From an uncultured virus (IMG/VR IMGVR_UViG_2912889086_000006) (Duplodnaviria > Heunggongvirae > Uroviricota > Caudoviricetes), in IMG/VR virus record IMGVR_UViG_2912889086_000006, positions 53,157-73,156 of that record: a DNA stretch of 20,000 bases; one strand, given 5' to 3'. Positions 270 to 19,682 of this stretch are shown piece by piece. Position 1 is the stretch's first letter; each line of letters starts with the position of its first letter. The notes beneath the pieces were generated by a model. That model saw only the letters and a list, made by a program, of their open reading frames with translations. It was not told the origin of the DNA and ran no database searches. Made by a program: the position numbers and the translations under genes.

Positions 270-518
270 ATGCTTAGTAAGACAGTTTGCGGCATGATGA
301 ATTTAGAAATATCGCGAATCTCTAATGCTACAACTCAAGATCTAGCCATACTGGATTCATACTATGCCATATCAGATGATCGAGTTGATTTGACTGAGTT
401 AACTCTACTACACAAAAATGGAAAAGTTTTAGGGACAGTCACAGTACATAATGTGAAAATTTCTTGGAATGGATTTAAAAAGGGAGAGAACATCATTGAC
501 TCAAATATACACTCATGA
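270..518 (+). CDS. Small hypothetical phage protein (82 aa)
   Basis: GAGGAG RBS about 9 nt before ATG 270; first gene after the sigma-A promoter; overlaps the start of the next gene. Confidence 0.65.
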   Translation: MLSKTVCGMMNLEISRISNATTQDLAILDSYYAISDDRVDLTELTLLHKNGKVLGTVTVHNVKISWNGFKKGENIIDSNIHS

Positions 519-2793
519 ATGTGTGCGAGATTATTTCAAGAAACATGGATGTGAACTTATTTCAGAATTTAAAAACGTTAAGCAGATACTTTCTTACAGA
601 TGTGTTTGCGGAGAAATAGGAACTACAAATTTTTATTCATATAGAAACAGTCTCCATAAAAAATGCATTAAATGTGTAAGAAAAAAAGCAAATAAGCCAA
701 ATAAATTAAACTTTGAATATGTAAAAAATTTTTTCAAAGAGAATAATTGCGAGCTCCTTGAAACCACGTATATTAATAGCTCTACTAAGATGGCTTACAT
801 CTGTTCGTGCGGGAAAAAAGATTATAAGACATGGAATAAATTTAGGACTGGACAAAGATGTAAGGATTGTGCAATAAATCAGAATGCTGAAAAACAGAGA
901 ACAGATACTTCATATGTTGAAAACTTTCTAAAAAAACATGGATTTTCAATAGCCAATGGGAAATATGTAAATGCAAATTTTAAAATGTTGCTTATTTGCC
1001 CATGCGGAAAACAAACTGAACGAACATGGAGTTCAGTTAAACAGAGCCCAAGATGCAACTGTTCAATTCATTACACAAAGCCCTTAAAAAGAAAATTTTC
1101 AAAAGAGGAACTGATTAATTTTTACTGGAAATTAAAGAACGATCTTGGAAGATACCCTAGTTTAGAGGATCTAAAGAAAAATCCGTCTTCCCCTTCCCCA
1201 TCTGTTTACGAACGAAAGTTTGGGGGATGGGTAAGGTTTTTAGAGAGTATTGGTGTAATGACTAGCGACAGATGGTATGTTGATGACATTGAAACCTTAA
1301 AACGTATGTATGCTGACTACTCTTATGAGGACATAAACGATGCTCTCATTAAGAAAAGGAGTAAAAGCACAATACAGCATAAAGCAAATAGCCTCGGATT
1401 AAAAAAATCTTATAAAGCTAAATTTGGAAAAGAAAAATTCTCAAATGATTATTTAATAACCTTTCTAAGGAATTTCTACGACAAATACAATCGAACTCCT
1501 GTTGCAAAAGATTTTGCAGAAAATGATTTAAACTATGATACTTTCACTAAACGTTTTGGATCATGGAATAATGCGCTAAAAAAAGCTGGTCTACCAATTA
1601 ATAGAGAACGATCAAAAAATCTCTCTAATAATGATTTACTTAAAATGAAGGAAATGTATGAAGCAGGAGTTAATATGCAAGATATAGCAAAACACTTTAA
1701 TTATACACATACTGCGCCTATTTATTATCATTTGAATAAGATGAATGTTAATCTAACACGTAATAATCGCTGGTCTAAAAAACAAATCCACTATTTGAAA
1801 GCTCACTATCCTAACGCAGAGTGGAAGGAATTACTTAAAAACCTTGCACCTTTTTCAAAAGAGGGTATTACTACAAAGGCTTATAAACTCGGCATAAAAA
1901 GAAACTCAAATTTTTACACCGAAAAAGAAGAAAAGATTCTTCGAAAATTTTATGGAAAAGTATCTTTTCATGAACTCCTTAAGATGTTGCCTAATAGAAC
2001 GGAATCTTCTGTTGTTTCTAAAGTTAATCATATGGGTTTAAAAATTAGAGAATTTTGGAGCGAAGAAGATATTAACATGCTGAAAAAACATTATCAGACC
2101 TCAACTGATGAAGAATTATTAAAAATGTTCAAAGATAGATCATGGTCTTCGATTCAAAGTATGGCAACAAAAAATTTGAATCTAAAGAGAACGAAGGAAT
2201 ATTACAAAAATAAAAAAGAAAAAATTAGAGATCATCTAATCAAAGAACTTATAGAGTACGCTAATGCTTTAGGAAGAACACCTACATCAGTAGAAGTTCA
2301 AAAGAACCGAAACCTGCAAGGAATTTCAACATATATTAGGTATTTTGATGGTTACAGAAATGCTTGTCTAAAAGCAGGTCTTGATCCTAATCAATCTATT
2401 TTTGGCAGCTCAATTCACTGTATATCATTAAATGGGGATATATGCCTTTCAAAAAAAGAGAAAGAAATAACCGACTTATTTATAAAAAATAACATAACGT
2501 ATGAAAAAGAGGTTCTTTATAAAGATATACTAGGCAAAAATAACATTCCAAATATAAGAGTTGATTGGTTTGTTAACAACAGAGTCATTGTTGAGTATTT
2601 CGGAATGACAGATAAAGATTATTATAAAAAAAGAGCTAATTATAAAATAGAGTTTTGTAAGAAGTATGACATCCCATTGATTCCCCTGTACCCTGATGAT
2701 TTAACGAATAACTACAAAGGCTTAAAAGAAAAATTTAAAACTCATGGAATTAACTTTTGGAATGGAGATGGGCAAAATGAACAAATACGTTAA
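496..2793 (+). CDS. Free-standing homing-endonuclease-like protein: multiple DNA-binding repeats plus C-terminal PD-(D/E)xK/Vsr-like (DUF559-like) nuclease domain
   Basis: Three CxC...Cx(x)C zinc-ribbon repeats, three 'homing endonuclease associated repeat'-like units (e.g. YNRTPVAKDF...TFTKRFGSWNNALKKAGL), four Myb/SANT-like units (e.g. WSEEDINMLKKHY...RSWSSIQ) and one HTH. C-terminus SKKEKEITDLFIKNNITYEKE...RVDWFVNNRVIVEYFG. The in-frame TTG at 496 has an AAGGGAG RBS 9 nt upstream, so it is the more likely start than ATG 469. Confidence 0.75.
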   Translation: MTQIYTHECVRDYFKKHGCELISEFKNVKQILSYRCVCGEIGTTNFYSYRNSLHKKCIKCVRKKANKPNKLNFEYVKNFFKENNCELLETTYINSSTKMAYICSCGKKDYKTWNKFRTGQRCKDCAINQNAEKQRTDTSYVENFLKKHGFSIANGKYVNANFKMLLICPCGKQTERTWSSVKQSPRCNCSIHYTKPLKRKFSKEELINFYWKLKNDLGRYPSLEDLKKNPSSPSPSVYERKFGGWVRFLESIGVMTSDRWYVDDIETLKRMYADYSYEDINDALIKKRSKSTIQHKANSLGLKKSYKAKFGKEKFSNDYLITFLRNFYDKYNRTPVAKDFAENDLNYDTFTKRFGSWNNALKKAGLPINRERSKNLSNNDLLKMKEMYEAGVNMQDIAKHFNYTHTAPIYYHLNKMNVNLTRNNRWSKKQIHYLKAHYPNAEWKELLKNLAPFSKEGITTKAYKLGIKRNSNFYTEKEEKILRKFYGKVSFHELLKMLPNRTESSVVSKVNHMGLKIREFWSEEDINMLKKHYQTSTDEELLKMFKDRSWSSIQSMATKNLNLKRTKEYYKNKKEKIRDHLIKELIEYANALGRTPTSVEVQKNRNLQGISTYIRYFDGYRNACLKAGLDPNQSIFGSSIHCISLNGDICLSKKEKEITDLFIKNNITYEKEVLYKDILGKNNIPNIRVDWFVNNRVIVEYFGMTDKDYYKKRANYKIEFCKKYDIPLIPLYPDDLTNNYKGLKEKFKTHGINFWNGDGQNEQIR

Positions 2794-3116: not shown

Positions 3117-6100
3117 TTGAGTCAACAGTTGAAAATTGTAGTAACTCCCGTTGCTGATACTTCCACTCAATCGGTTGAACAAATTAACAAGCAGCTTAAA
3201 ACACTACAATCCAAGTTAAACTACCTTCAACTCAAAACGAATATTGATGCTTCCGCTCTAAAAACCCTCAAAGAATTCTCTTCTGCAGTTGAAACATATC
3301 AAAAAAATCTTAAGAATTACAATCAGACAGTTAAAGAAACACAAACGGTCATTAAGAATGCTGACGGTACAACTGAAAAAATCATTCAGCAACACAAAAA
3401 GAATGGTGAAATACTTCAGCGAGAAATTAAGACGATTGATAATCGAAATCAAAAGATTCGTCAAGAAGCTCAGGAAACAGCAAAATTAACATCTGAAATT
3501 CAGAAACTTGGACAAGCTCAGAAGATTATTGAACGGCAAAATGCTCAGGGTGTAAAAACAGGATCAACTCAGAAAAACCGTGACGGTTTTAGGGATATTA
3601 CGTACAATCTCGATCAAAACGGTAATATTAAAAACTCAACCACTGTAACAAATCTTGATCAACAAAGAAAGGCAATTGAACAGCTTAGAGCAAGCTTGCA
3701 AAAATTAAAAGAGCAAGGGCAACTGTCTGAAGTCACCCTCTCTTCTCTTGGACGAAAAATTAATTTAGCTCAGTCTACAGAACAGATTGAAGCACTCAGA
3801 GCCAAGCTTAAGACTCTTGATGACAAGTCAGCAGCAGTTGCAAAAACTAAAGAGATTGAAAGGCAGTTAGAACTATATAGAAGACAAGCCCAGGTAAATA
3901 CTCAGAACCTGCAAAACAGATACGGCAGCTCATTGAGCAATGCAAGTAATCAACAACTTCATCAGTATTTGAATTCTGTTAATCAATTGACTGCAAGGAC
4001 ACCTAATCTAACAAATCAGATGGCTAGTCTTAATATGCAGTTTAGGGAAATGTCATCAAACATTGCTGCTACTACAAGGCAGACAATGGGTTTTGGTGAG
4101 CAGCTTCAAGTAGCAATGTCCCGCGTGCCTGTGTGGATGGCATCTATGACACTTTTTTACATGCCAATAAGATTGCTATCAGATCTCACCAGTCAAGTTA
4201 TATCGCTTGACACTCAAATGACTGGCTTACGACGGGTTATGGACTTACCTGATTATAAGTTTAACGAGCTTCTTCAAAGATCTATTGACTTGAGCGATGA
4301 GTTAGCAAACAAGACTTCAGATGTTCTTACCATAATGAACGAATTTGGGCGTATGGGTTACAAAGATGATGAGTTATTGGATCTAACCAAGACAGCTCAA
4401 ATGATGGAGAACATTAGTGAACTACAACCTGAAGATACCGTTAAAGCTCTCACAGCAGCGATGGTCAACTTCGGAATTCAATCTAAAGACAGCTTAAAAA
4501 TCGCCGATGCATTGAACGAAGTTGACAATAATTTCCAAACAAGCACATTGGATTTAGCTCAATCAATGAGAAAGTCAGCTGCCGCTGCAAAAGTATATGG
4601 CGTGAGTATGGAAGAGTTATTGGGATTAAGCTTAGTCCTCCTTTATAGCAATATAAAGGTAATAAACCTCTCTAATTGCTGGGAACTCCTTATGGGACAA
4701 TCAGCAGCGAAGCCTCATCTGAGGAACGTTCAACGACTATCGTATAGGCGGTGAAATTCCGCAAAACGAGTAGGGCGCAAGCTATTGGCGTGGGTGAGAA
4801 CCCCTTAAATCGAAACGGGAGGCATCCCAATGGGATGAAGATATAGTCTAGACTTATAGGTAACTATAAGCAGTAAACAGCGCATACAATGTAGCGAGTT
4901 GTATGGAATGATTCGATACTACAGCCATTCAATCATCCACTAAAGAAAGTGGTAACATTGTCGGTAAAATGATTGCTGACATTAAATCTCTTCTGATTGA
5001 CTTGGAACTCCTAACGTTTAGTCGAGGACGACAAGGGGCAAGCGTAATGGTAGCCTGAACGACTGAGTGAAGAGACACAGAAATGTGAAGCGACAGTCTG
5101 AACTCTATGGAAACATAGAGAGTGAGGTTGAAGCGCCTCACCGCCATTTATAATGGTCAGTAGCCTTTTGGTGAAAGTAACAGAATTGAACGCCTTAAAA
5201 ACAATATTTGCCAGAATCCAAACAAATGGAGCAGCAATTAAAAGTCTTGAGAGTGTAGGAATTGCAGTTAAAGATGTTGGTGGAGAAGCAAGACCTGTCT
5301 CTGATATACTCGAGGAACTCGCTTCTAAGTGGGATAGTCTCTCTGAAGCACAGAAGCAGCAAATCGGGGTTTCATCAGCAGGTATGTTTCAAAATACTCG
5401 ATTAATTATAGTCGCCTTATACAGTAATGTATAAGTGAAAACCCAGTGAACCCTATTGCTCAGGGGTGTGTCCTTATCAAAGGATGCTAACGGTGGAACT
5501 CTAAGGGAGAAATCCTATGACAATACCGTGCCAAGCCTTGGTTACTAGGAAGGTGTAACGACTAGCCTAACGGCGTAGAACAGACATTGAGCTACTGTTC
5601 AAAGTGCTGGGCATCCTTTTAGGATGAAGATATAGTCTAGTCCCCTACTTAAATATCGGGAAACCGAGGGTATAAACGTTTTAGCGCTCATGGAGCAATG
5701 GAGTACGGCTGCCAAGGCCACAACTACTGCAATTAACAGCCAGGGATCTGCGATGCGCGAGCAAGAACGCTACTCTGAAAGTTTGGAAGGACGCCTAAAC
5801 AGATTATCTGCTGCTTGGACAGGTCTTGCAGCAAATGCAGGTGATGCTTTCCTTTCTGATGGGATAATAGCTTTTGCCGAAGCATTAAGAGACATCGTTC
5901 AAGTCGGCGGGGAAGTTATAAAAACGATTGGATTCTTACCGAGTATTTTTGCTTTAGCAAGTACTGCCACTCTTCTTCTTAGTAAAAATGTAAGAATACT
6001 TGCAACCACACTTGTGCTCGGTACTTCTGCAATGAGACAAGAAACACTTGCAAGCATAGGTCTAAGTACAGGTATGACTCGTGCAGCAGTGGCATCGAAT

Positions 6101-9100
6101 CTATTGAAAACTGCACTTAGGGGATTAATGGTTGCGACGGTTGTCGGTGCTGGTTTCATGGCTTTAGGCTTCGTAATCGAAAAACTTGTCTCTGCTTATT
6201 CTGATGCTAAACAAGAACAAGAAAAGCTTGCAGAGTCACAAAAGAAAAGCGTTGAAGCAATAACCACAAATAAAGAACAGACCGATCAGTTAATACAAAA
6301 ATATAAAGAGCTGCAAAAAGCTAAAGATAAAGGCACCCTTTCCGCTGATCAAGAACAAGAATACCTTCAAGTAACGCAACAATTAGCTCAGACGTTCCCT
6401 AATTTGATTTCTGGCTATGACTCCCAAGGTAATGCCATCATTAAAAATAATGAAGCGTTAGAAGATGCCATAAAATACACCAAAGAATTAGCCGAATTAA
6501 ACAAAAAAGACATACAAACTGGCGCAAATAGCAACTTTAAAGAAACCCTGAGTGATATCAGTAAGCTGACTGATGAGATGAAAGAGTACCAAAAAGTTGC
6601 AGACCATTATAAAAACAATGATCGGCCATTCTGGGACATCTTCGACAGCGACAGTGATTATAAAAACTTTGGAATTAAAGCTGAACAGCAAGCTCTTCAA
6701 GTCAATCAGAAGTTATCTAGTTCTCAAGCTAAACTTAGAGAACAGGTGCTACAAACTGTTGACGCTTATAACTCCATTAAAATCAACCCTCAGTTAACCA
6801 AAGATATTAACGAAGCCTTCAATAAAATTGACTTCAGTAAGATGAATTCTGATGAATTAGAGTCGTTTTCCATTAATGTTTCAAAATACATGGATGACAT
6901 TCAGAAAGCATTAGAATCAGGAAATAAAGTTGATTTCTCAAGAGCATCTCAAGCACTTCAGAATTTAATTAACCAACAAATCAAAGGTTCTGATGAAGCT
7001 GATAAGCTTTCCCTATCATATGATGATCTTAAAGATGCACTTGACTCTACAAAAAATGCTGCTGATTCTGCAAAGATCACTTGGGATGAGAATGGTGAAG
7101 GCGTAAACGAATTAACCGGAGAAGTTGAAGATTTAAGTCAAAAGCTCAAGGATGCCAAAGGTGATCTAGAGGCAATAAAAGCTGTAATGGACGATTTGGT
7201 GGCTTCTCAACAAACAGAGCTAGCTATTTCTGCCCTTCAAAATGAAGCATATGATTCTTTTGCCGACTCCATCTCCCCTCTCAATGAACTGCTTGAGAAA
7301 ATGGCAGAAGGAAAAAGTATCTCAGCTGCTGAAGCAATGAAACTGGTTCAAAAAGAAAAAGACTTGGCTGGAGCTATTAGTGTTGAAAACGGCGTAGTTA
7401 AATTGAACCGAGATGCTATCATAAAACTACGTGATGCAAAACTTAAAGCATACAACGATATGCAAAAGTCAGTTAAACAGGATCTAATAAACCAGGCAAA
7501 CGCAACAGTTAAGAAAATAAAGAACTATGGTTTAGAAGTCAAATCAATCCAGACTGTTGCCGATGCCCAAGCCAACCTTTCCAAAATGAGAAAAGAAGTA
7601 GACACATTAATGGAAAGTGGCAATATCCAGATGGCAATGCCAGTCATTAAAGAAATAAATGAATTGAGCGACGTCACTGGACAGTTAGAAGATCTGGATA
7701 AAATGGCTGAATTGGCCAACTCATCTTTAAATGAAGTTGGTACATCCCTCGAGAAATATTCTGACGAACAAGAAAAAGCCAGCAAAGAAACTGAGAAATC
7801 CAAATACGTCATTGATAAATATAAAGAAGCTCTTGAAAAAGTAAATGCGGAAATTGAGAAATACAACAAGCAAACCAATGATTATCCTAAATGGTCACAA
7901 AAATACAGAGATGCAATCAATAAGGAAATCAAGGCATTAGAGCGTAAGAAAAAGCTAATGCAAGATCAGATTAAACTGCTGAAACAGCAAATCAAATCTG
8001 GTTATATTCCTCAAACTGGACTTGTTACCTCCTCTTCCTCTTCTGGTTCTTCATCAGGCTCATATTCTCCTGGAGGATCATATTCCGGAAAATACTCTTC
8101 TTATATTAATGCTGCAGCAAGCAAATATGGTGTTGACCCTGCACTAATCGCTGCGATTATTAAACAAGAATCAAACTTCAATGCCAAAGCTCGTTCTGGC
8201 GCTGGAGCAATGGGTTTGATGCAACTCATGCCTGGTACTGCAAAAAGTCTAGGTGTAAAAAATGCATATGATCCATACCAAAACATTATGGGCGGTACCA
8301 AATATATTGCTCAAATGTTAAACAAGTTTGGAGGGAACATCGAGAAAGCTTTAGCTGCTTACAACGCGGGGCCAGGAAACGTAATTAAATATGGTGGCAC
8401 CCCTCCTTTTAAAGAAACGCAAAATTACGTTAAGAAAGTACTCTCTAACTACAATAAGAGCTTATCAACAGCGACTTCAAAGATCGCAAATTATTACACG
8501 AGCAGCAATGGATTTAGAGTAAGTTCAAAGTTTGGAGCGAAAGAGAGTGGTCTCCGCTCCTCCCCTCACAAAGGAACCGACTTTGCAGCTAAAGCGGGCA
8601 CCCCTGTAAAAGCATTAAAAGCTGGTAAAGTCATAACCGCTACCTATTCAAAAACAGCAGGTAACTGGGTTGTTGTTCAACAAGACGATGGAACAGTTGC
8701 AAAATATATGCACATGCAAAACGGCCTTAAAGTTAAGAAAGGTGATGTTGTATCTGCTGGCCAAGCAATAGGTAAAGTAGGAAGTACTGGACACTCAACA
8801 GGAAACCACCTCCACCTACAAATTGAACAAAATGGCAAACCAATTGACCCAGAAAAGTATATGCAGGGTTTAACCTCAGATCTTTCTCAGTCTGAAGCTG
8901 AAAGACAACAAGCCCTTTCACAGGCAAAATCGGATTTAATCGGTTTGCAAGGTGATTTAGACGCAGTTAATGATCAAATTCAAGATCTGCAATACGAATT
9001 GGTTCAATCCAAGCTTGATGAATTTGATAAACGGAAATCTGATCTAGAAGTCAAAATTGCTCAAAATGAGTCTTTGGCCAAACGCTATCTTTCTGACAGC

Positions 9101-10561
9101 AAAGAATTTCGCAAATATACAAATGAGCAGAAGAAAGCTGTTGATGAGCAACGCAAAATTCAACAGCAAAAAATTAACTGGATCAACAAAGAGTTAAAAA
9201 CAAATAAAAAACTTAACTATGCTCAACGCGATCAACTAAGAGAAGAACTGAAACAGGCTAAATTAGATCTCATCTCCTTACAAGATCAAGTCAGAGAGCT
9301 GCAAGGGGAACTAATTCAGTCACAGGTTGACCAGACACTCAATAATATTGAGAAATCTGTTAAGAAAACTGAATCCAAGCTTAAAGATGTTGATATCAAG
9401 ATTCAAATGACTGAGGATGACAATCAAAAAGTCAAGTACTACAGTCAGCAAATAAAATTGATTCAACAGCAACAAGCTGAAGCAAAAAAGTACATTAAGC
9501 AACTTGAAGCACAGAAAAAGGCAGCTAAAGGTTTCCCTGACATCCAGAAACAAATCACAGAGGAAATTGAAAACTGGAAGGATAAACAGAAGGAATACAA
9601 CCTGGAGCTTTATAACACCAAGAAGTCCATTAAAGATATCTATAAATCACTCGCAGATGAAGTCGTTTCAATTTATAAAGAAATGTACGAAAAGATGCGT
9701 GATATTGAGCTGGAAGCACATCGAAAAGCAACTCAAGATATAATCGATGAAATTGATAAAGAAGACGACGAAGCCAAGTTCCAGAAATCCCTTAAAGAAA
9801 AACAGGATGCCATTCAAGAAACAAAAGACAAGATAAGCAAACTGTCTCTCGATGATTCAGATGAGGCAAAAGCAAAACTAAAAGATTTAGATAAGCAACT
9901 CCAAGAACAACAACAAGATCTTGATGAATTTTTAAAGGATCGTGAGAATTCTAAACGTAAAGAAGCATTACAGGATCAACTTGAAAAAGATGAGAAATCA
10001 ATAAACACCAAGTATGATGATCTTGTCAACGACGAAAGAGCATTTAAAAAGCTTGAGGATAAGTTGATGAATGGAAAGATTACCGATATCGCCAAGCAGC
10101 TTAATGAGTTTTCAAAGTTCATTAACAGCAACATGGAATCTATTGGTAAGAGCATCTCCAACAATCTAATTGATAAGCTTAAAGAAGCCTCCAAAGCTTT
10201 AAATGTTGTAGTCGCTGGAAACACCACAGGTAAAAAAGTTGCCTCTTTTGATGTTGGTGGCTATACAGGAACATGGGGCAGTTCGGGAAGACTTGCAATG
10301 CTCCATGAGCAAGAACTTGTTTTAAATAAAGCTGATACAAGCAATGTTTTGAAAATTGTTGAGCTCACCCGAAACATTTTTGGAGATATCCAAACAAAAG
10401 CTGCAATCCCTTCCCCTAATGCTACATCTAATCAAACGACAAGTAACCAAACATTTAATTTTAACTTTAATGTAGATAAGATGACTGGCTCTAAAGATGA
10501 TGCAAATAAATTCTTAGGAGAAGCATTTAACATTGTATCAGCTAGAGGGGTTAAAATTTAG
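3117..10561 (+). CDS. cwlP: Tail tape measure protein / virion peptidoglycan hydrolase CwlP (YomI), spliced: join(3117..4626,4916..4965,5189..5402,5679..10561), 2218 aa
   Basis: TTG start with AAAGGA RBS. TP901-type tape measure core (LNEVDNNF...[17 protein letters not shown]), SLT domain (IAAIIKQES...GLMQLMP...ALAAYNAG) and M23 peptidase (HKGTD...HLH). Exons of 1510+50+214+4883 nt sum to 6657 nt = 2219 codons including stop, and the junctions restore the conserved motifs. Confidence 0.93.
4627..4915 (+). ncRNA. Group I self-splicing intron 1 (289 nt, ORF-less, IA-like with P7.1/P7.2)
   Basis: P1: exon GGGAU|UA pairs with UAGUCCU, giving U4626.G4635. P AATTGCTGGGAA 4674-4685, Q AATCAGCAGC 4699-4708, R GTTCAACGACTA 4728-4739, S AAGATATAGTC 4838-4848. 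P3 CCTCTC/GGGAGG, P8 CATCCCAATGGGATG, P9 CTTATAGGTAACTATAAG. Ends in G4915. Junction T+AT gives Tyr. Confidence 0.93.
4916..4965 (+). CDS. cwlP: Tape measure exon 2 (50-nt micro-exon, (Y)[16 protein letters not shown])
   Basis: Translates to the conserved YTTAI.S.T.ESGNIVG motif of YomI-type tape measures; absent from the ORF track. Confidence 0.9.
4966..5188 (+). ncRNA. Group I self-splicing intron 2 (223 nt, ORF-less, compact core without P7.1/P7.2)
   Basis: P1: exon GUCGGU pairs with GCUGAC 4975-4980, giving U4965.G4975. P3 TCTCTTC 4987-4993 / GAAGAGA 5069-5075, P4 CTTG/CAAG, P7 GACTG 5061-5065 / CAGTC 5094-5098, S-like AAGCGACAGTC, P8 CACAGAAATGTG, P9 CTCTATGGAAACATAGAG. Ends in G5188. 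Junction GGT|AAC gives Gly-Asn. Confidence 0.9.
5189..5402 (+). CDS. cwlP: Tape measure exon 3 (214 nt, [10 protein letters not shown]...AGMFQNTR)
   Basis: Corresponds to the internal part of track ORF 5153..5434, whose two ends are intron sequence. Contains the conserved LKTIFARI and [11 protein letters not shown] motifs. Confidence 0.9.
5403..5678 (+). ncRNA. Group I self-splicing intron 3 (276 nt, ORF-less, IA-like, related to intron 1)
   Basis: P1: exon CGAU|UA pairs with UAGUCG, giving U5402.G5411. P2 CTTATACAGTAATGTATAAG. P TAACGGTGGAA 5488-5498, Q AATACCGTG 5522-5530, R GTGTAACGACTA 5553-5564, S AAGATATAGTC 5627-5637. P3 CCCAGT/GCTGGG, P8 CATCCTTTTAGGATG, P9 TCGGGAAACCGA. Ends in G5678. 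Junction T+TT gives Phe, then LALMEQW. Confidence 0.93.
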
Positions 10562-10618: not shown

Positions 10619-11380
10619 ATGATAAGAGAGAGCCTGTACTTTATTTTCGGGAACGAAAAATCCACAGATATGGGTGTTGAAAACGTCAATACTGATGGAG
10701 GGTTAGTTGAAGAAACATTTCTAGCTACCTCATCAATTAATGAAACCTCCATCAAGGGTAATGATACACCCTTCTATGAAGGGAAAAAACGTGAACCAAA
10801 GCAATTCAATCTTAATTTTTATATAAAGGATCACTGGAATCAAAAAAGGATCGCCAACATTAAACGATGGCTGGATGTTGATACATACCAGCCTTTTTCT
10901 TTCAGTGACAACCTTGATATCGTCTATTATGCAATGCCTGTAGATGCAAATGATTTAGTTCACAATGCAAGCAAGGAAGGCTATGTAAGGCTAACTATGA
11001 GGTGTGATTCCCCTTATGCCTACAGTAGGACTATAACTACTCCGTGGCACGATGCTTCTAAGGAAGACATAACAGTTGAGATTAACAATAAAGGTGAATG
11101 CACCATCATTCCATCGTTTAAAATTCAAAAGATCGGTAAGGGTGATGTTAAAATAGAAAATTTAAGTTACTTCTCCTCCCCTTCTGTATTCACCGATCTT
11201 GAAGATGGCGAAATCATAACAGTTACTGGAGAAAAAGAAATTGTGGAATCATCAATATACGGCGATGAACGTTACGATAATTTTAATGATGAGTACCTTC
11301 TACTCGATTATGGGATGAACCGTATTAGAGTAACAGGAAGATGTAGAATTCTTTTCAGTTATAGATTTAAATATCGTTAG
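10619..11380 (+). CDS. yomH: Distal tail protein (Dit, Sipho_tail family), YomH-like
   Basis: Directly after the tape measure gene; 253 aa; motifs YFIFGNEKSTDMGV, LTMRCDSPYAYS, LDYGMNRIRVTG typical of siphophage Dit proteins. Confidence 0.82.
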   Translation: MIRESLYFIFGNEKSTDMGVENVNTDGGLVEETFLATSSINETSIKGNDTPFYEGKKREPKQFNLNFYIKDHWNQKRIANIKRWLDVDTYQPFSFSDNLDIVYYAMPVDANDLVHNASKEGYVRLTMRCDSPYAYSRTITTPWHDASKEDITVEINNKGECTIIPSFKIQKIGKGDVKIENLSYFSSPSVFTDLEDGEIITVTGEKEIVESSIYGDERYDNFNDEYLLLDYGMNRIRVTGRCRILFSYRFKYR

Positions 11381-11383
11381 GAG

Positions 11384-14023
11384 GTGTCTTTACTGTTTCA
11401 ACAAGTAACGCGATCATTTAATTTAAGGAAGCCGAAACTTTCACTTGCTAAAGCTAACAAAAAGAAAATCGCAAATCTTGTCGATATCTCAAATGTTAAT
11501 TTGACATTAAGACTAGGCGAAATCAATGAGTTGTCTTTCACAGTACCTTTAAAAATTGAAATAGACAAACAATGGGTTAAGAATCCTCATCTCAAGCGCC
11601 TGAAATTACGAAGGCTCGTCAAGCTTTCCGCATACAACTTCAAAGATGAATGGTTCATTATTAAAACAAAGCAAAAAACTGGTGCAGACAATGAATTATT
11701 GACATTTACGTGCATGTCACTTGGACATCAATTGAGCTATCGAAAAGTTAGAAGATATGAAGTCACTTCCTATAATATGCAACAGGTTACAAATGACTGT
11801 TTTGCAAACACCAACTGGAAAGCCGGATACATAAATCCTCTATTCAATGAAAAATTCCGCAGTTTTGATATTACCTCTTCTACAAAGTTAGACTTCCTCT
11901 TTAAAATATGCGAGACATTCGAAGCTATCCCTGTATTTGACACCATAGAAAAAAGAGTGCATTTCTATACTGAAGATGAAGTATCAAATTACAAAGGGAT
12001 GAGATTAAAATACGGTCAGTATTTAGATTCGATAGAAGACACTGAGGAACTTGAAGAAGTCTGTACCAGACTCTATGTAACTGGGAAAGATGATCTCTCA
12101 ATAAACGCTGCCAATCCAACTGGACAAGCTTATATAGAAGATTTTACATATTTTCTTTATCCATTTGAGCGAGATAAAGATCGCAAGGTGATAACTCACA
12201 GTTACGAAATGAGTGATGAATTATGTCATGCCATTCTCGATTTCAATGAGTTCATCGATTCTCAAACTGAAACATTCTCTTCCCTTCTCTCTCGACAAAC
12301 CGAGGAAGAAAAGAAACTTTCAACACTTAACGCAGAAAAGGCAAAGCTTGATTTAGAATACAAAGTAATTTTAGATAAAATTGCAGTAGCAACAGAAGCG
12401 AAAGATCCAACTGCCGAGCTTATAAAAGAGCGAAAAGCTAAAGAGGCTGAAATTGATTCAAAAAAAAAGGAAATAGAAGAAAAAGAAAAACTGATTAAGG
12501 ACATTCAGGATAAAATATCCCTTTTAAAGGGAAAATTGACGCTCGAAAGCCACCTTAATGATGAGCTTAAAGAAGAGTTGGCGGAATTTATAAATGAGCA
12601 AGAATGGGCTAATGACAATCTTTATGATGAAACTGATCTTTATGAAGCCGGACTTGAGGAAATGAAAAAGCGCAACACCCCTCCAATCAATATAACAATG
12701 AGCATAGTTAATTTTTTTGGAATTTTGAGTGAACAACAAAATTGGGACAGGCTATCTATTGGAGATATTGTTCGAGTACAGCATGATCGCCTTGGTATTG
12801 ATGTTAAAACAAAGGTAATAGAAATGACCTTTGACTTTGAGGCTAACAAGATTAATTTGACTGTCTCAAATTCAAAACGAGTTGAAACTGTTAAAGAAAA
12901 GATGGTCAAACTCGTTTATACAGTCAGTCATATAAACAACGACTATGCAATTAGAAAAATTGACTGGATGAATACCGCTGAGAATTTTAAAATCCGGAAT
13001 GATCGAATTTCCGCCCCAGTTGCAGCTCCTACCGTTGCATCAGACGGAACCGCAATTACTCATGAACTGAATGACAATGGTTCAGTTGATGTTGTTTTAA
13101 AATGGGAGTATCCAGATTCTGATGAGGATAGATACAACATTGATGGGTTTGAAGTTTATCTCTATTCCAGTGAATCATCTGATGAATATGTGTTTGGCTC
13201 TAAGATGAGCCATGAGGAAATGGTTAATGTAAAGTATGACAAGCGTTCCTACAAATTCACGGGACTTGCCTCGAATAAATACTACACTCTGGGTGTTAGA
13301 GCCTACCGTAGAGTTGATGCAGATATTGAGAGAACTGGAATTATTCTTTCTGATATTGTTCAGTCAAAACATATTACTGAGAATCCCTACCTCCCTTCTG
13401 CTATTACAGAAGTCAAAGGAAGAGTAAATGGACTAATCCAATCTGTGTCTAAGGAAAGACCTGCTAATCCAGAGGTCAATACAATTTGGATTAATCCAGA
13501 AACTAATAAGCAAGAATTATATAACGGAGAAAAGTGGATTGAGCAATCTGCTGGATCGGCAGATTCCTTGAACGGATACACAGCAGAAGTTACCGCTTCC
13601 CCCTATTCTATACCCGTCAGAGATGAAACAGGAACCATTAATGCATCAATTACTGGAAGCGCTACTCAGCTTGGAGGCCGTAACTCTTCGGAGTATGCAC
13701 TAAAATCTGATATCCCTTCTCCCCCGCAATATGCAATAGGGGAATATGTTGGAGACGGCAAACAGAGCAGATCAATAAGTCTTAATTTCATACCGACTGT
13801 TGTTAAAATTTATCCCACATCACCAGACGATTCAGCTTTAATTATCCAAAACAACTTAGGCGGTTATTCGTTCCAAAACGGTGATGCAGGTGCTTACCTT
13901 AAAGGTGGGGATAAATCATATGGATCATTGAACTTGAATTATTTTGTTACTGGCTCAGACATCAACACTCGCGGCAACAAGTTGAATGTAAAGTATATCT
14001 GGGAAGCGTACAAACAAAACTAA
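11384..14023 (+). CDS. yomG: Tail hub / Tal-like minor structural protein with coiled-coil and fibronectin-III-like domain, YomG-like
   Basis: Follows Dit; prophage tail motifs (INELSFTVP, TRLYVTGKDDLSI, GDIVRV) and an FnIII-like region (VVLKWEYP...FTGLASNKYYTLGVRAY). The track's GTG start overlaps the SD, so the real start may be CTG 11393. Confidence 0.82.
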   Translation: MSLLFQQVTRSFNLRKPKLSLAKANKKKIANLVDISNVNLTLRLGEINELSFTVPLKIEIDKQWVKNPHLKRLKLRRLVKLSAYNFKDEWFIIKTKQKTGADNELLTFTCMSLGHQLSYRKVRRYEVTSYNMQQVTNDCFANTNWKAGYINPLFNEKFRSFDITSSTKLDFLFKICETFEAIPVFDTIEKRVHFYTEDEVSNYKGMRLKYGQYLDSIEDTEELEEVCTRLYVTGKDDLSINAANPTGQAYIEDFTYFLYPFERDKDRKVITHSYEMSDELCHAILDFNEFIDSQTETFSSLLSRQTEEEKKLSTLNAEKAKLDLEYKVILDKIAVATEAKDPTAELIKERKAKEAEIDSKKKEIEEKEKLIKDIQDKISLLKGKLTLESHLNDELKEELAEFINEQEWANDNLYDETDLYEAGLEEMKKRNTPPINITMSIVNFFGILSEQQNWDRLSIGDIVRVQHDRLGIDVKTKVIEMTFDFEANKINLTVSNSKRVETVKEKMVKLVYTVSHINNDYAIRKIDWMNTAENFKIRNDRISAPVAAPTVASDGTAITHELNDNGSVDVVLKWEYPDSDEDRYNIDGFEVYLYSSESSDEYVFGSKMSHEEMVNVKYDKRSYKFTGLASNKYYTLGVRAYRRVDADIERTGIILSDIVQSKHITENPYLPSAITEVKGRVNGLIQSVSKERPANPEVNTIWINPETNKQELYNGEKWIEQSAGSADSLNGYTAEVTASPYSIPVRDETGTINASITGSATQLGGRNSSEYALKSDIPSPPQYAIGEYVGDGKQSRSISLNFIPTVVKIYPTSPDDSALIIQNNLGGYSFQNGDAGAYLKGGDKSYGSLNLNYFVTGSDINTRGNKLNVKYIWEAYKQN

Positions 14024-14851: not shown

Positions 14852-17473
14852 ATGATGAATTTTTTAAAATATTATGATCCGCTTTTAGAAAAGTGGATAT
14901 CTATTGAACTAGAAGCAATAAGCTCAGACGGGGAAAGATGGACAGCCCCTATGATTACCCTAAAATTCAAAGAAGTTATTAATCAAATTGGTGATGTTAA
15001 ACAGGATATTACCGATGTTCAAAAGCACTTTGAAAAAGAAATAGAAAATGTCTCAAATAATATAAGCAACATTGAGAAAATTATTGGCGACGTCTCCAAA
15101 TTCAAGACAATTGGTGACACATTAGTTGATAAAATAATTAATCAGTTTACTCAACGCAGCGTGAACGTTAAAGATTATGGTGCAAAGGGTGACGGTTTAA
15201 CTGATGATACTGCTGCATTTGAAAAAGCTCTTGGTAGTGGATTCTCTAATGTATTTGTTCCTGAAGGGACTTACATGGTTAAAGGTATTAAGATCCCTTC
15301 CTTCACTCGTCTATATGGAACTGGCGCAAAATCCATAATTAAACTTCATCCAGATACCTCCCCCACCACCCATGTCATCACTAATAAAGATTACACAAAT
15401 GGCAACTCCTATATTCAAATCGAAAATCTCCTCGCTGACTGGAATTTAAGAAAGAAGAACAACAAAATCGGATCGGGGCCAAATGCAAGCTGCGTAAATA
15501 TAACAAATAGCCAGTTTGTTTGGATTAAAAATGTTCATGCGAAAGACGCTGGGTTGCATGGATTTGATGTTACTTCCCCTAAGTACAATTCATCTTCTGA
15601 TGGGGCTAATTATTATCAACCAAAAGGTTCTAAGTATGTTTGGATTGACAGTTGCACAGCTTGGAACTTTGGGGATGATGGTTTTACCACCCATTTCTCT
15701 GACTTCGTATTCCATTCAAACTGCTACTCTTATAACGGTAATGGATCTGCTCACAACACTGGAGTAAGTAATACCAATGGATATGAAGCTGATGACGGCT
15801 CTAGACACATTTGGTTCAACGATTGTCACAGTAAAAATAACTGTAGAGGTTTTGAAGTTAAAGCTCACAGTCTCGCCCCCGCTGCTCAAAATGTGCATTT
15901 AGTAAATTGTTCATCAGAAAATGATATTCGATCATTTGACTTTAGACATATTGGACACCACCTTGCTTCAGATCCTATATCTAAGAGTGCATTCAACGTA
16001 AGTGCTACTAACTGCACTTCTCTTCGACCTAAATTTGGAAGTCTGTATAAAGATCTTGCCCCCAGAGCGCTGGTTATTTCCGCATTCAGAAATGTGAATG
16101 TAAATAACTTTACTGCAATCGGAGATCCTTCATATGACTATAAAGGGAATCCTGTTATTGCAACTCAGTATAAATCGAGAAATATAAACCTGAACAACAT
16201 TTCAGTGTCAAACTTTAAAACTGCAGAGGCTGACATTTATGTTTATGGTGGAGATCAAAAATCAGACAACGTAAATATTTCTAATGTTAACAGTTTCGAG
16301 TCAGCCAGAGTGGGAGTGCGTATTGGGAGTGGCACCGAAAACGTTAAGCTTACAAATGCAAGCCTAATTGGGAATGGAAAAAGTGACAGCGTTGGAGTAT
16401 ATTGCTCTAACTCTCAAGCAAGCTTATTCGGGATTTCCGTTGAGAAGTATAAAAAAGCTGCAACAATTGCAGGTGTAGACTATTCTTTTGTCCCAAACTT
16501 AATAAAAAACGGGACGCGAATTGCATCCTCAAGTGGCGAGGTAAAAAACGTCACATCCTCACTTTTAAGCTCAAGCGCTGGGTGCGTAGCATCTGGACAC
16601 GACTCCACCGTTATCGCTTCTTCTAATTCAAAAGCAACTGGCACAAGATCCGCAGTTATTGGTTCCACTGGAGGAACAATAACAAGAGGAATTCGTACTG
16701 CAGCTATTGCTTCATCAGGTGGCTCATCGGTTCACGGCAGTAGAGCTGCAGTTATTACATCTAATAACTCACATACGACAAACAAAGACGGCGGATATGC
16801 TAAAACTGTTCTTTCATCGAACAACGTTATAAATGATATGAACTATCATGTTGTAGGTGGTTATGGCGACGGATCAAAAGCTTCTACTGCAAATATCAAA
16901 TGGGATATCAGCTCGTTTTCAGGAAACATAAAGGCCAGTGGAAAAATAACTGGCTCTTCTGTGTTCAGTGACTATGCCGAGTACTTCGAAAGTGTAGATG
17001 GCCAAAAAATTGACACTGGCTATCTAGTGACATTAGAAGGCGACAAAATCAGAAAAGCTGAAAAGGGTGACTTTTTATTAGGTGTAATTTCTGAGACAGC
17101 AGGCTTTGTTTTAGGTGAATCTACATTTCACTGGCAAGGTCGCTACAAAAAAAATGAATTTGGTGGATTGGTTTATAAAGAGTTGATCAACGAGCATGGA
17201 AAAACATATCGTGTCCCAGTTGAGAATGAAGAATACGATCCATCAACAGATTATGCGTCAAGAACTGAAAGAGATGAATGGAATGTTGTTGGACTTGTAG
17301 GACAGGTTTTTGTTCGAATCGATGACACTTTGAACGTCGGAGATTATTTCGAAGCTAATAACGGAATTGCAACCAAAACTGATAATCCAAATAACAGATG
17401 GAGAGTAATGAAAATTACCAAGCCATATTCAAAAAAAGATGGTTACGGAGTTGCTATATGCTTTATACGATAA
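14852..17473 (+). CDS. yomE: Tailspike / pre-neck-appendage-like receptor-binding protein: pectate-lyase-like beta-helix plus C-terminal peptidase G2 autocleaving chaperone, YomE-like
   Basis: VNVKDYGAKGDGLTDDTAAF beta-helix entry motif, GDDGFTTH and NGYEADDGS motifs, and SDYAEYFES at about 16967 as in phi29 gp12. AAGGAGG RBS. Confidence 0.87.
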   Translation: MMNFLKYYDPLLEKWISIELEAISSDGERWTAPMITLKFKEVINQIGDVKQDITDVQKHFEKEIENVSNNISNIEKIIGDVSKFKTIGDTLVDKIINQFTQRSVNVKDYGAKGDGLTDDTAAFEKALGSGFSNVFVPEGTYMVKGIKIPSFTRLYGTGAKSIIKLHPDTSPTTHVITNKDYTNGNSYIQIENLLADWNLRKKNNKIGSGPNASCVNITNSQFVWIKNVHAKDAGLHGFDVTSPKYNSSSDGANYYQPKGSKYVWIDSCTAWNFGDDGFTTHFSDFVFHSNCYSYNGNGSAHNTGVSNTNGYEADDGSRHIWFNDCHSKNNCRGFEVKAHSLAPAAQNVHLVNCSSENDIRSFDFRHIGHHLASDPISKSAFNVSATNCTSLRPKFGSLYKDLAPRALVISAFRNVNVNNFTAIGDPSYDYKGNPVIATQYKSRNINLNNISVSNFKTAEADIYVYGGDQKSDNVNISNVNSFESARVGVRIGSGTENVKLTNASLIGNGKSDSVGVYCSNSQASLFGISVEKYKKAATIAGVDYSFVPNLIKNGTRIASSSGEVKNVTSSLLSSSAGCVASGHDSTVIASSNSKATGTRSAVIGSTGGTITRGIRTAAIASSGGSSVHGSRAAVITSNNSHTTNKDGGYAKTVLSSNNVINDMNYHVVGGYGDGSKASTANIKWDISSFSGNIKASGKITGSSVFSDYAEYFESVDGQKIDTGYLVTLEGDKIRKAEKGDFLLGVISETAGFVLGESTFHWQGRYKKNEFGGLVYKELINEHGKTYRVPVENEEYDPSTDYASRTERDEWNVVGLVGQVFVRIDDTLNVGDYFEANNGIATKTDNPNNRWRVMKITKPYSKKDGYGVAICFIR

Positions 17474-19427: not shown

Positions 19428-19682
19428 ATGAATAAAATCAACTGGAAAGTAAGACTGAAAAAGAAAACATTCCTTGTAACAATTTTCTCTGCAACACTTT
19501 TATTTGTTCAAACAATTGCTTCAGCTTTTGGATATGACATAACAGTATACAGTGCTGCTCTAACTGAAAAATTCAACGCTATATTAACATTGTTGGTTGC
19601 ATTAGGCATTGTAGTTGACCCCACAACTAAAGGCATCTCTGATAGCAATCAAGCAATGGAATATGAAGAGCCAAGACAATAA
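19428..19682 (+). CDS. Phage holin, phi LC3 family
   Basis: MNKINWKVRLKKKTF...GIVVDPTTKGISDS.QAMEYEEP signature; two TM segments; AAAGGAG RBS. Confidence 0.9.
   Translation: MNKINWKVRLKKKTFLVTIFSATLLFVQTIASAFGYDITVYSAALTEKFNAILTLLVALGIVVDPTTKGISDSNQAMEYEEPRQ

What the first reader, a model, noticed from the sequence alone, without database searches (positions are those of the whole stretch)
4627..5678. Three clustered ORF-less group I introns interrupt the phage tail tape measure gene
Seen in sequence: three insertions of 289, 223 and 276 nt within about 1 kb. Each has a 5' exon U pairing with a G in an internal guide sequence, P3/P4/P7/P8/P9 pairings and a terminal G. Exact removal rebuilds a 2218-aa frame and restores LLG-Y-TTAI, NIVG-N-ALKT and TR-F-LAL junctions. 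Established knowledge: phage group I introns mostly sit in DNA-metabolism genes (T4 td/nrdB/nrdD, SPO1 DNA polymerase, SPbeta bnrdE/bnrdF), and a three-intron late gene is known from staphylococcal phage Twort orf142. I am not aware of a triple-intron SPbeta tape measure gene. Inference: tail assembly needs three splicing events, and automated annotation would wrongly call this gene a pseudogene.
Basis: partly seen in the sequence, partly recalled or inferred. Interest (0 to 1): 0.93.

Follow-up and report, generated by a model that had tools for sequence, protein, structure and literature searches.

The report
Three self-splicing introns split tail-ruler gene
The tail-length "ruler" gene of this SPbeta-like Bacillus prophage is cut by three small self-splicing group I introns, which is real but is a further example of a habit already described for Bacillus prophages.

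Summary
Three insertions (4627-4915, 4966-5188 and 5403-5678) each match the Rfam group I intron model, at 102.6, 27.9 and 45.8 bits. Removing them exactly gives a 2218-codon frame that lines up with intron-less SPbeta YomI with no gap at any junction.

Each site is empty in some relatives and filled in others. The weakest-scoring intron keeps a full group I fold, with 7 compensated base pairs. Exons on both sides of the introns are under purifying selection, dN/dS 0.04-0.26. Splicing itself was not shown: the RNA runs I laid were uninformative.

It is not new in kind. Tourasse & Kolsto 2008 (PMC2504315) described group I introns at three sites in tape measure genes of Bacillus cereus-group prophages.

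Here 23 of 34 related loci are interrupted, at seven or more sites within about 131 codons, and three others also carry three introns. This scan has also noted multi-intron tape measure genes on other DNA.

Verdict: a new member of a known kind, of modest interest. The most useful extra is that one intron family sits at two different sites of the gene that share only CGAT.

The parts
3117..4626 (+). Tape measure gene exon 1 (TTG start, 503 codons plus 1 base)
   Evidence: tblastn of YomI 1-502 maps to 3117-4616. PF10145 PhageMin_Tail matches aa 390-502. TIGR01760 tape_meas_TP901 matches aa 351-502, profile positions 5-158 of 349.
4627..4915 (+). Group I intron 1 (289 nt). P1 pairs exon GGGAU 4622-4626 with GUCCU 4635-4639, giving U4626-G4635. 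The terminal G is 4915.
   Evidence: RF00028 102.6 bits, E 3.5e-27. The site is empty in L005 and eight other loci. Homologous introns at the same site: L006/L010 at 97.6% identity, L007/L035 at 89%, L008 at 88%. A 74-nt insert lies between the P7 5' strand and the P3 3' strand in the cmscan alignment.
4916..4965 (+). Exon 2, 50 nt (encodes ..[17 protein letters not shown])
   Evidence: Fills YomI residues 506-522, which tblastn left uncovered.
4966..5188 (+). Group I intron 2 (223 nt, compact, with no P2 and no P7.1/7.2). P1 pairs exon GUCGGU 4960-4965 with GCUGAC 4975-4980, giving U4965-G4975. P7 pairs 5061-5065 with 5094-5098. The terminal G is 5188.
   Evidence: RF00028 27.9 bits, E 8.5e-5, misaligned at its 5' end. 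On 10 distinct family members my structure has 98.9% of cells paired and 7 pairs changed on both sides, reached by 0 of 500 shuffles. The site is empty in 19 loci.
5189..5402 (+). Exon 3, 214 nt
   Evidence: YomI 523-594 maps to 5189-5404.
5403..5678 (+). Group I intron 3 (276 nt). P1 pairs exon CGAU 5399-5402 with GUCG 5411-5414, giving U5402-G5411. The terminal G is 5678.
   Evidence: RF00028 45.8 bits, E 3.7e-10. Compensated pairs occur in P2 (4), P3 (1) and P8 (1) across 10 family members. The site is empty in L007, L009, L020, L035 and L036.
5679..10561 (+). Exon 4 (1627 codons plus stop), with lytic transglycosylase and M23 peptidase domains
   Evidence: PF01464 SLT E 4.4e-34 and PF01551 Peptidase_M23 E 8.9e-31. 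YomI 596-2184 maps to 5684-10372 at 61.7% identity.
469..2793 (+). Neighbouring 774-aa homing-endonuclease-like gene (possible helper; link unproven)
   Evidence: PF18780 homing endonuclease associated repeat x3, E 1.4e-37. PHROG 559 'HNH endonuclease' matches aa 12-217, E 2.1e-18. No catalytic domain was found in Pfam at E up to 5. No match among solved structures.

Best explanation
The gene is an SPbeta YomI-type tail tape measure gene, with a lytic transglycosylase and an M23 peptidase in its C-terminal half. It is interrupted by three small group I ribozyme introns that carry no endonuclease gene.

After late transcription each intron should fold and pair its internal guide with the last 4-6 exon bases. 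A U-G wobble would sit at the splice site. The intron would then excise itself by the two guanosine-initiated transesterifications. Only the triply spliced mRNA encodes the 2218-residue protein, so tail assembly depends on three splicing events.

Unspliced RNA is translated into early stops. The last base of the stop lies 128, 93 and 32 nt into introns 1, 2 and 3.

Shown: the three ribozyme folds, the exact boundaries, the intact colinear frame, site-by-site presence or absence in relatives, and selection on the exons. Inferred: self-splicing activity, its efficiency, and how the introns spread.

The introns belong to a pool that moves among Bacillus prophage tape measure genes. Spread is probably by recombination between phages, and in at least one case by insertion at a new site that matches only the 4-nt guide.
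For: - **Covariance model.** Three RF00028 matches with E 3.5e-27, 3.7e-10 and 8.5e-5 fall on the three insertions and nowhere else in the 73-kb record.
- **Colinearity.** Exact removal gives 2218 codons with no stop. The product aligns to YomI (1341 identical of 2290 columns) with no gap at the junctions.
- **Empty and filled sites.** Close relatives carry {1} (L007, L035), {1,2} (L006, L008, L010) or {2,3} (L005), while the window carries {1,2,3}. Uninterrupted sequence spans each junction in other loci.
- **Intron 2 fold.** 54 pairs were counted and 98.9% of cells are paired. Seven pairs changed on both sides (P5, P6, P7, P8, P9.1 x2, P9.2). None of 500 shuffles reached this, and slid controls gave 0-1.
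- **Intron 3 family.** Compensated pairs occur in P2, P3 and P8.
- **Splice-site rules.** P1 with U-G at the splice site and a terminal G can be read directly for all three.
- **Selection on exons.** dN/dS of the window against six intron-bearing relatives is 0.04-0.26 for exon 1, exons 2-3 and exon 4, with no stops in the spliced relatives.
- **Intron conservation.** The introns are far more conserved than synonymous sites. Intron 2 is 100% and intron 1 is 97.6% identical to L006, where exon dS is 0.26-0.35.
- **Similarity to a known phage intron.** Part of the intron 1 core is 95.2% identical over 126 nt to the region of the SPbeta bnrdF gene that holds yosQ, which by recall is the bnrdF group I intron.
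Against: - No RNA evidence of splicing was obtained.
- Introns 2 and 3 score below Rfam's gathering score of 50 bits. Intron 2 drops to 19 bits in the whole-record search.
- A genome that carries an intron 2 relative (G003, locus L037) gave no RF00028 match at all.
- I drew the intron 2 structure from these same sequences, which favours it over the slid controls. The compared sequences are also related to one another.
- P10 pairings are weak, at 2-3 bp.
- The reading frame stays open 42 and 30 codons into introns 1 and 2. That is longer than the 27 nt or less reported for the B. cereus-group introns (PMC2504315, section 9 passage), so ribosomes could disturb folding.
- The provirus record is estimated to be only 57% complete.
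Confidence: 0.9

Rival explanations
1. The insertions are decayed intron relics that no longer splice, so the tape measure gene is a pseudogene in a defective prophage.
For: No splicing was shown. Two of the three introns are below Rfam's gathering score. The provirus is estimated to be 57% complete. The introns carry no endonuclease gene, which is the stage that precedes loss in the usual intron life cycle.
Against: All four exons stay open over 2218 codons. dN/dS is 0.04-0.26 on exons upstream of, between and downstream of the introns in six comparisons. Compensatory changes keep the ribozyme helices intact. Each of the three intron families recurs in other loci: intron 1 in 5 (two of which, L007 and L035, may be one sequence), intron 2 in 12, and intron 3 in 11. 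In the nine of these loci whose genes I spliced and translated, no stop appears.
Confidence: 0.05
2. The introns are true group I introns, but they splice only with help, or their splicing is regulated. The helper could be a host or phage RNA chaperone or maturase-like factor. Competition between neighbouring ribozymes could also cause exon skipping, so that the three introns throttle or diversify tape measure production and do not act as neutral passengers.
For: Only 50 nt separate introns 1 and 2. Exon skipping is documented for multi-intron phage genes, namely Twort orf142 and the SIOphi DNA polymerase gene (passages of PMC11878797). Exons 2 and 3 sum to 264 nt, or 88 codons, so skipping both would stay in frame (arithmetic). 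The frame stays open 42 and 30 codons into introns 1 and 2.
Against: Nothing here shows alternative products. The 88 residues lie in the most conserved part of the protein (PF10145/TIGR01760) and are under strong purifying selection (dN/dS 0.04-0.16). Relatives do well with 0, 1 or 2 introns at these sites.
Confidence: 0.12
3. The insertions are another kind of element (insertion sequences, MITEs, inteins or assembly artefacts) and not introns.
For: None beyond the fact that they interrupt a gene.
Against: All three match the group I covariance model. They contain in-frame stops, so they cannot be inteins. The same insertions occur at the same base in independently assembled records.
Confidence: 0.01

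Closest known systems
TMP-IVS1, IVS2, IVS3a/b: group I introns in tape measure genes of Bacillus cereus-group prophages (Tourasse & Kolsto 2008, PMC2504315; passages and section 8 part 1 read)
   Same: The host gene is of the same kind, a prophage tape measure protein in Bacillus, with several insertion sites per gene. The introns mostly lack a complete endonuclease gene. Similar introns sit at different sites, and different introns sit at the same site. Their cores are reported to match the SPbeta ribonucleotide reductase introns and Twort-like staphylococcal phage introns, and searches show the same here.
   Different: The phage lineage differs: SPbeta/YomI type with 2218 aa and transglycosylase plus M23 domains, against lambdaBa01-like there. 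As I read section 8 of the paper, no gene there carries more than two of the introns, whereas this one has three. The frame stays open 42 and 30 codons into introns 1 and 2, against stops within 27 nt there. I could not test whether the insertion sites are homologous, because the paper's Figure 4B is not held.
Staphylococcus phage Twort orf142 (three group I introns in one late structural gene; Landthaler & Shub 1999, known to me from recall and from passages of PMC11878797)
   Same: Three small ORF-less group I introns lie in one late virion gene, separated by short exons. The last 54 nt of intron 3 (5625-5678) are 96% identical to sequence in staphylococcal phages such as phiSA_BS1 and vB_SauM_Romulus.
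   Different: The Twort gene encodes the tail tube, and Twort is a virulent myovirus. Splicing and exon skipping were shown experimentally there and not here.
SPbeta bnrdE/bnrdF group I introns (the bnrdF intron holds the HNH gene yosQ)
   Same: Same phage family. Intron 1 bases 4724-4849 are 95.2% identical over 126 nt to the bnrdF/yosQ region of SPBc2, phi3T, SPR and others.
   Different: Those introns sit in ribonucleotide reductase genes, and the bnrdF intron carries its own endonuclease gene. The 25 SPbeta-type isolates matched at 90% or more have uninterrupted yomI where listed.
Multi-intron DNA polymerase and terminase genes of Bastillevirinae phages (PMC11878797; passages read)
   Same: Two or three group I introns occur per gene in Bacillus phages, with exon skipping seen by nanopore cDNA.
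   Different: Those introns average 802 nt, mostly carry endonuclease genes and sit in DNA-metabolism or packaging genes. According to the passages read, that survey found none in tail genes.
ORF-less intron plus free-standing homing endonuclease ('collaborative homing', cyanophage psbA with F-CphI; recalled, no paper read here)
   Same: ORF-less introns lie next to a large homing-endonuclease-like gene (469-2793), which ends 324 nt before the tape measure start.
   Different: No catalytic domain was identified. The gene is found upstream in only 5-6 of 34 related loci. No single intron site is shared by all the loci that have it.

Membership tests
Group I intron (Rfam RF00028) | Match to the covariance model at or above the gathering score (50 bits) | tested here: inconclusive
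   Intron 1 passes at 102.6 bits. Intron 3 (45.8 bits, E 3.7e-10) and intron 2 (27.9 bits, E 8.5e-5; 19 bits) are significant but below the cut-off.
Group I intron (Rfam RF00028) | P1 helix between the end of the 5' exon and an internal guide, with U-G at the splice site | tested here: met
   Read. Intron 1: GGGAU with GUCCU. Intron 2: GUCGGU with GCUGAC. Intron 3: CGAU with GUCG. The intron 2 P1 is kept in all 10 distinct family members, with one G-U to G-C change.
Group I intron (Rfam RF00028) | Terminal guanosine (omega G) at the 3' end | tested here: met
   G at 4915, 5188 and 5678. These are the only boundaries that restore colinearity with YomI.
Group I intron (Rfam RF00028) | Conserved core P3-P9 including the P3/P7 pseudoknot, supported by covariation | tested here: met
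   Intron 2: 11 helices, 98.9% of cells paired, 7 compensated pairs including one in P7. Intron 3: compensated pairs in P2, P3 and P8. Intron 1: full-length model alignment.
Group I intron (Rfam RF00028) | Exact removal restores a gene colinear with intron-less alleles | tested here: met
Group I intron (Rfam RF00028) | Guanosine-dependent self-splicing | not testable with these tools
   The RNA contigs laid came from mixed food metagenomes and showed no spliced form of this gene.
Subgroup IA (IA2-like phage introns) | Extra P7.1/P7.2 between P7 and P3' | tested here: inconclusive
   Inserts of 74 nt (intron 1) and 38 nt (intron 3) lie at that place in the cmscan alignments. Intron 2 has only 4 nt there. 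No subgroup models were available, so the subgroup name rests on recall.
Tape measure introns of Bacillus prophages (TMP-IVS type, PMC2504315) | Group I intron inside a prophage tape measure gene of a Bacillus | tested here: met
   PF10145 and TIGR01760 on exon 1. YomI homology. The closest named genome locus is Bacillus paralicheniformis, at 93% identity.
Tape measure introns of Bacillus prophages (TMP-IVS type, PMC2504315) | Same insertion sites or same intron lineages as IVS1-3 | not tested
   The figure with the sites is not held. A plasmid search for a B. cereus-group example found none with a split match.
Collaborative homing pair (ORF-less intron plus free-standing endonuclease) | Neighbouring endonuclease that cuts the intron-less allele at the intron site | not testable with these tools
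   Only adjacency and homing-endonuclease-associated repeats are shown. No nuclease domain was found.

The most novel reading that the evidence does not exclude
The conserved TP901-type domain of SPbeta-like tape measure genes is a landing strip for endonuclease-less group I introns, with seven or more insertion sites in about 131 codons. These introns relocate within the gene by guide-directed reverse splicing.

The intron 3 family sits after ..ACTCGAT in the window and L005. The same family, at 89-94% identity, sits after ..TTGCCGAT 128 codons upstream in ten other loci. The two sites share only the CGAT that pairs with the guide GUCG.

The variable homing-endonuclease-like gene just upstream (469-2793) might add DNA-level mobility in trans.
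Probability: 0.25. Interest if true: 0.55.

Novelty: new member of a known kind. Interest (0 to 1): 0.3.

Why it matters
The practical consequence is for annotation. Gene callers split this 2218-residue virion protein into pieces: ORFs 3117-4754, 5153-5434 and 5690-10561. The same happens in many Bacillus prophages, so tape measure genes get miscounted or flagged as broken.

Biologically, the finding adds the SPbeta lineage to the Bacillus prophages whose tail-ruler gene depends on ribozyme splicing. It also offers a natural series of alleles with 0, 1, 2 or 3 introns, one intron family at two sites, and two families at one site. That series could be used to study how endonuclease-less introns spread and whether neighbouring ribozymes interfere with each other. 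It does not reveal a new mechanism.

Tried and rejected
- **RNA evidence.** The look-up of sequencing runs found no run holding half or more of the sampled words. I laid three RNA runs (food metagenomes) and one run of unrecorded type on 4000-6200. Contigs were short and 90-99% alike, so they come from mixtures of relatives. One RNA contig joins 5394 to 5708 with 37 other letters between. That equals the 8 + 29 exon bases, so it is a form without intron 3. The contig still contains the end of intron 2, however, and differs at about 10% of positions. It is most simply an intron-3-less relative, whether DNA or unspliced RNA, and is not a spliced product. The high summed depth over the intron cores cannot be interpreted.
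- **Isolated phages with split genes.** tblastn of YomI 440-650 matched 156 records. Of the 60 rows listed, 59 were single pieces and one had two pieces of unchanged length. I did not look at the other 96 rows.
- **Plasmids.** 30 records matched, all as single pieces, and none was the B. cereus-group example I was looking for.
- **Degenerate intron 2 core pattern in viral contigs.** It returned only 9 loci, because my pattern demanded a base that the window-type introns lack. I dropped it.
- **Upstream 774-aa protein.** No solved relative, no catalytic Pfam domain at E up to 5, and only a sub-threshold NCBIfam match.
- **Homolog of that protein upstream of the gene.** It occurs in L006, L010, L025, L027 and L028, and weakly in L026. 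All of these are intron-bearing, but that is 6 of 23 interrupted loci against 0 of 11 uninterrupted ones, and the loci are related to each other. This is no evidence of linkage.
- **Literature.** Searches for 'yomI' + 'intron' and 'SPbeta' + 'group I intron' + 'tail' found no paper on introns in an SPbeta-type tape measure gene.
Full report
**What is there**

The window is the last 20 kb of a 73,156-base provirus record. It carries an SPbeta-like tail and lysis module:
- a YomI-type tape measure gene;
- a Dit-like protein at 10619-11380;
- a YomG-like tail protein at 11384-14023;
- a Peptidase_G2 / pectate-lyase-like protein at 14852-17473;
- an amidase at 17803-18891;
- a holin at 19428-19682.

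A mechanical ORF list breaks the tape measure gene into 3117-4754, 5153-5434 and 5690-10561.

**The observation checks out**

At Rfam's gathering threshold RF00028 matches only 4617-4870, at 102.6 bits. A permissive scan of 4500-5800 adds 5394-5659 (45.8 bits, E 3.7e-10) and 4891-5120 (27.9 bits, E 8.5e-5). The three other weak matches in that scan are to unrelated families at E 0.54-4.1 and look like chance. The whole provirus record holds no further group I match.

SPBc2 YomI (L004) maps to the window in three tblastn pieces: residues 1-502, 523-594 and 596-2184. That leaves exactly the 20 residues that the 50-nt exon 2 and the split codons supply.

Joining the four exons in a script gives 6657 nt, or 2218 codons, with one terminal stop. 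A global alignment to YomI has 1341 identities in 2290 columns and no gap across [30 protein letters not shown] or NTRFLALM.

**Ribozyme anatomy**

P1 can be read directly for all three introns:

| Intron | Exon strand | Guide strand | Splice-site wobble |
|---|---|---|---|
| 1 | GGGAU 4622-4626 | GUCCU 4635-4639 | U4626-G4635 |
| 2 | GUCGGU 4960-4965 | GCUGAC 4975-4980 | U4965-G4975 |
| 3 | CGAU 5399-5402 | GUCG 5411-5414 | U5402-G5411 |

In the cmscan alignments, introns 1 and 3 carry 74-nt and 38-nt inserts between the P7 5' strand and the P3 3' strand. That is where subgroup IA introns have P7.1/P7.2. The subgroup name rests on recall and was not tested.

Intron 2 is compact and scores poorly on the general model. 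A genome that carries a 90%-identical copy (G003, L037) gave no RF00028 match at all. I therefore aligned 12 copies from relatives, 10 of them distinct, and drew P1, P3-P9 and three 3' hairpins by hand.
- Across 54 pairs, 98.9% of cells are standard pairs.
- Seven pairs changed on both sides (P5, P6, P7, P8, two in P9.1, P9.2).
- None of 500 shuffles reached these values, and slid controls gave 0-1 such pairs.
- Caveat: the structure was drawn from these same related sequences.

For the intron 3 family, RNAalifold on 10 copies recovered P2 with four compensated pairs, plus one each in P3 and P8.

**Relatives**

A 209-residue piece of exon 1 retrieved 30 viral loci and 4 genome loci. The genome loci are Bacillus paralicheniformis at 93% identity, plus B. 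xiamenensis, B. pumilus and B. glycinifermentans. L036 and L038 are the same contigs as L009 and L022.

tblastn of the spliced protein shows 23 of the 34 loci interrupted and 11 uninterrupted. Combining, the insertions fall at seven or more sites between YomI residues 466 and 597:
- after D466;
- after D472;
- after V477;
- in codon Y506 (the window's site 1);
- after G522 (site 2);
- in codon F594 (site 3);
- just after residue 596 or 597.

One 523-nt insertion in L030 is unresolved.

The closest relatives, at 92-97% identity, carry {1}, {1,2} or {2,3}. The window carries all three. L024, L029 and L031 also have three introns, in other combinations.

Uninterrupted sequence spans each of the window's junctions in other loci. 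Alleles without an intron often differ at the bases that pair with the guide: GGG or GGA in place of GGT at site 2, and AGAT in place of CGAT at site 3.

Among 91 genomes of the family of the B. paralicheniformis locus, 9 have a YomI-type match at 50% identity or more, and 4 of those 9 are split. In contrast, the isolated SPbeta-type phages listed have uninterrupted genes: 59 of the 60 rows shown, out of 156 records.

**The interrupted genes are functional**

Against six intron-bearing relatives, dN/dS is 0.04-0.23 for exon 1, 0.04-0.16 for exons 2-3 and 0.09-0.26 for exon 4. None of the spliced relatives has a stop.

The introns are more conserved than synonymous sites. Intron 2 is 100% and intron 1 is 97.6% identical to L006, where exon dS is 0.26-0.35. 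That fits either selection on the ribozyme or recent spread.

**How the introns move**

None of the three has room for an endonuclease gene.

The intron 3 family sits at site 3 in the window and in L005. The same family, at 89-94% identity, sits after D466 in ten other loci. In nine of those ten loci (all but L029), site 3 is filled by a different 332-333-nt intron. RF00028 scores that other intron at 33 bits in G002.

The two sites share only CGAT before the insertion. That fits guide-directed insertion (reverse splicing) better than one endonuclease recognising both sites, but this is an inference.

Intron cores are also shared with other phage genes:
- 126 nt at 95.2% identity with the SPbeta bnrdF/yosQ region;
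- 76 nt at 96% identity with phiNIT1-type phages;
- 54 nt at 96% identity with staphylococcal phages such as phiSA_BS1 and vB_SauM_Romulus.

Directly upstream, ORF 469-2793 has three homing-endonuclease-associated repeats and PHROG matches to HNH endonucleases, but no recognised catalytic domain. A homolog sits upstream of the gene in only 5-6 related loci.

**What is known**

Tourasse & Kolsto 2008 (PMC2504315; passages and section 8 part 1 read) describe group I introns at three sites of tape measure genes in B. cereus-group prophages. By my reading of section 8, no gene there carries more than two of them, and the introns mostly lack endonuclease genes. They also report similar introns at different sites and different introns at one site, with cores matching SPbeta reductase introns and Twort-like phage introns. 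The paper's table also lists an intron in the tape measure gene of Lactobacillus phage JCL1032.

PMC11878797 (passages read) documents two or three introns per gene, and exon skipping, in Bastillevirinae. It notes that Twort orf142 encodes a tail tube protein.

My searches found no paper on introns in an SPbeta-type tape measure gene. Earlier notes of this scan report tape measure genes with two, four and five introns on other DNA. I did not test those notes.

**Verdict**

These are real introns with exact boundaries, and the gene is very probably functional after three splicing events. It is a new member of a known kind.

Noticed in passing
window 469-2793 (+): A 774-aa protein with Cys-rich N-terminal modules, three homing-endonuclease-associated repeats (PF18780) and PHROG matches to HNH endonucleases, but no recognised catalytic domain. 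It ends 324 nt before the tape measure start. A homolog is present upstream of the gene in L006, L010, L025, L027 and L028 (weakly in L026) and absent from the other related loci.
   Followed up: partly
L023 and L025 against window 3117-7600: A mosaic tape measure gene. Nucleotide identity to the window is 92-93% for codons 1-300, 61-71% for codons 301-700 (the whole intron-rich domain) and 89-95% beyond. The domain, together with its introns, looks exchanged as a cassette.
   Followed up: partly
window 4664-4849 and 5625-5678: Near-identical stretches of intron core are shared with unrelated phage genes: the SPbeta bnrdF/yosQ region (126 nt, 95.2%), phiNIT1/SPG24-type Bacillus phages (76 nt, 96%), and staphylococcal phages such as phiSA_BS1 and vB_SauM_Romulus (54 nt, 96%).
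   Followed up: no
window 4916-4965 plus 5189-5402: Exons 2 and 3 together are 264 nt, or 88 codons. Skipping both would keep the frame, while skipping exon 2 alone would not.
   Followed up: no
L030:3589-4111: A 523-nt insertion lies between YomI residues 509 and 523 in a 48%-identical relative. It may be two introns around a roughly 39-nt exon, or one larger intron. Boundaries were not resolved.
   Followed up: no
window 5394-5708 in RNA run X1: One 744-nt contig joins 5394 to 5708 with 37 other letters between, which is the length of the flanking exon bases. It still holds the end of intron 2 and is about 90% alike, so it is probably a relative without intron 3.
   Followed up: partly
G003 (genome of L037): The whole-genome RF00028 search found nothing, although L037 carries an intron 2 relative at 90% identity. 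The general Rfam model and its filters miss this compact intron type.
   Followed up: no
window 4960-4965 and 5399-5402 against the empty sites in relatives: Intron-bearing alleles use GGT and CGA-T at the splice sites. Many intron-less alleles have GGG or GGA, and AGA-T. Either the exon bases that pair with the guide travel with the intron, or they are needed for it.
   Followed up: partly
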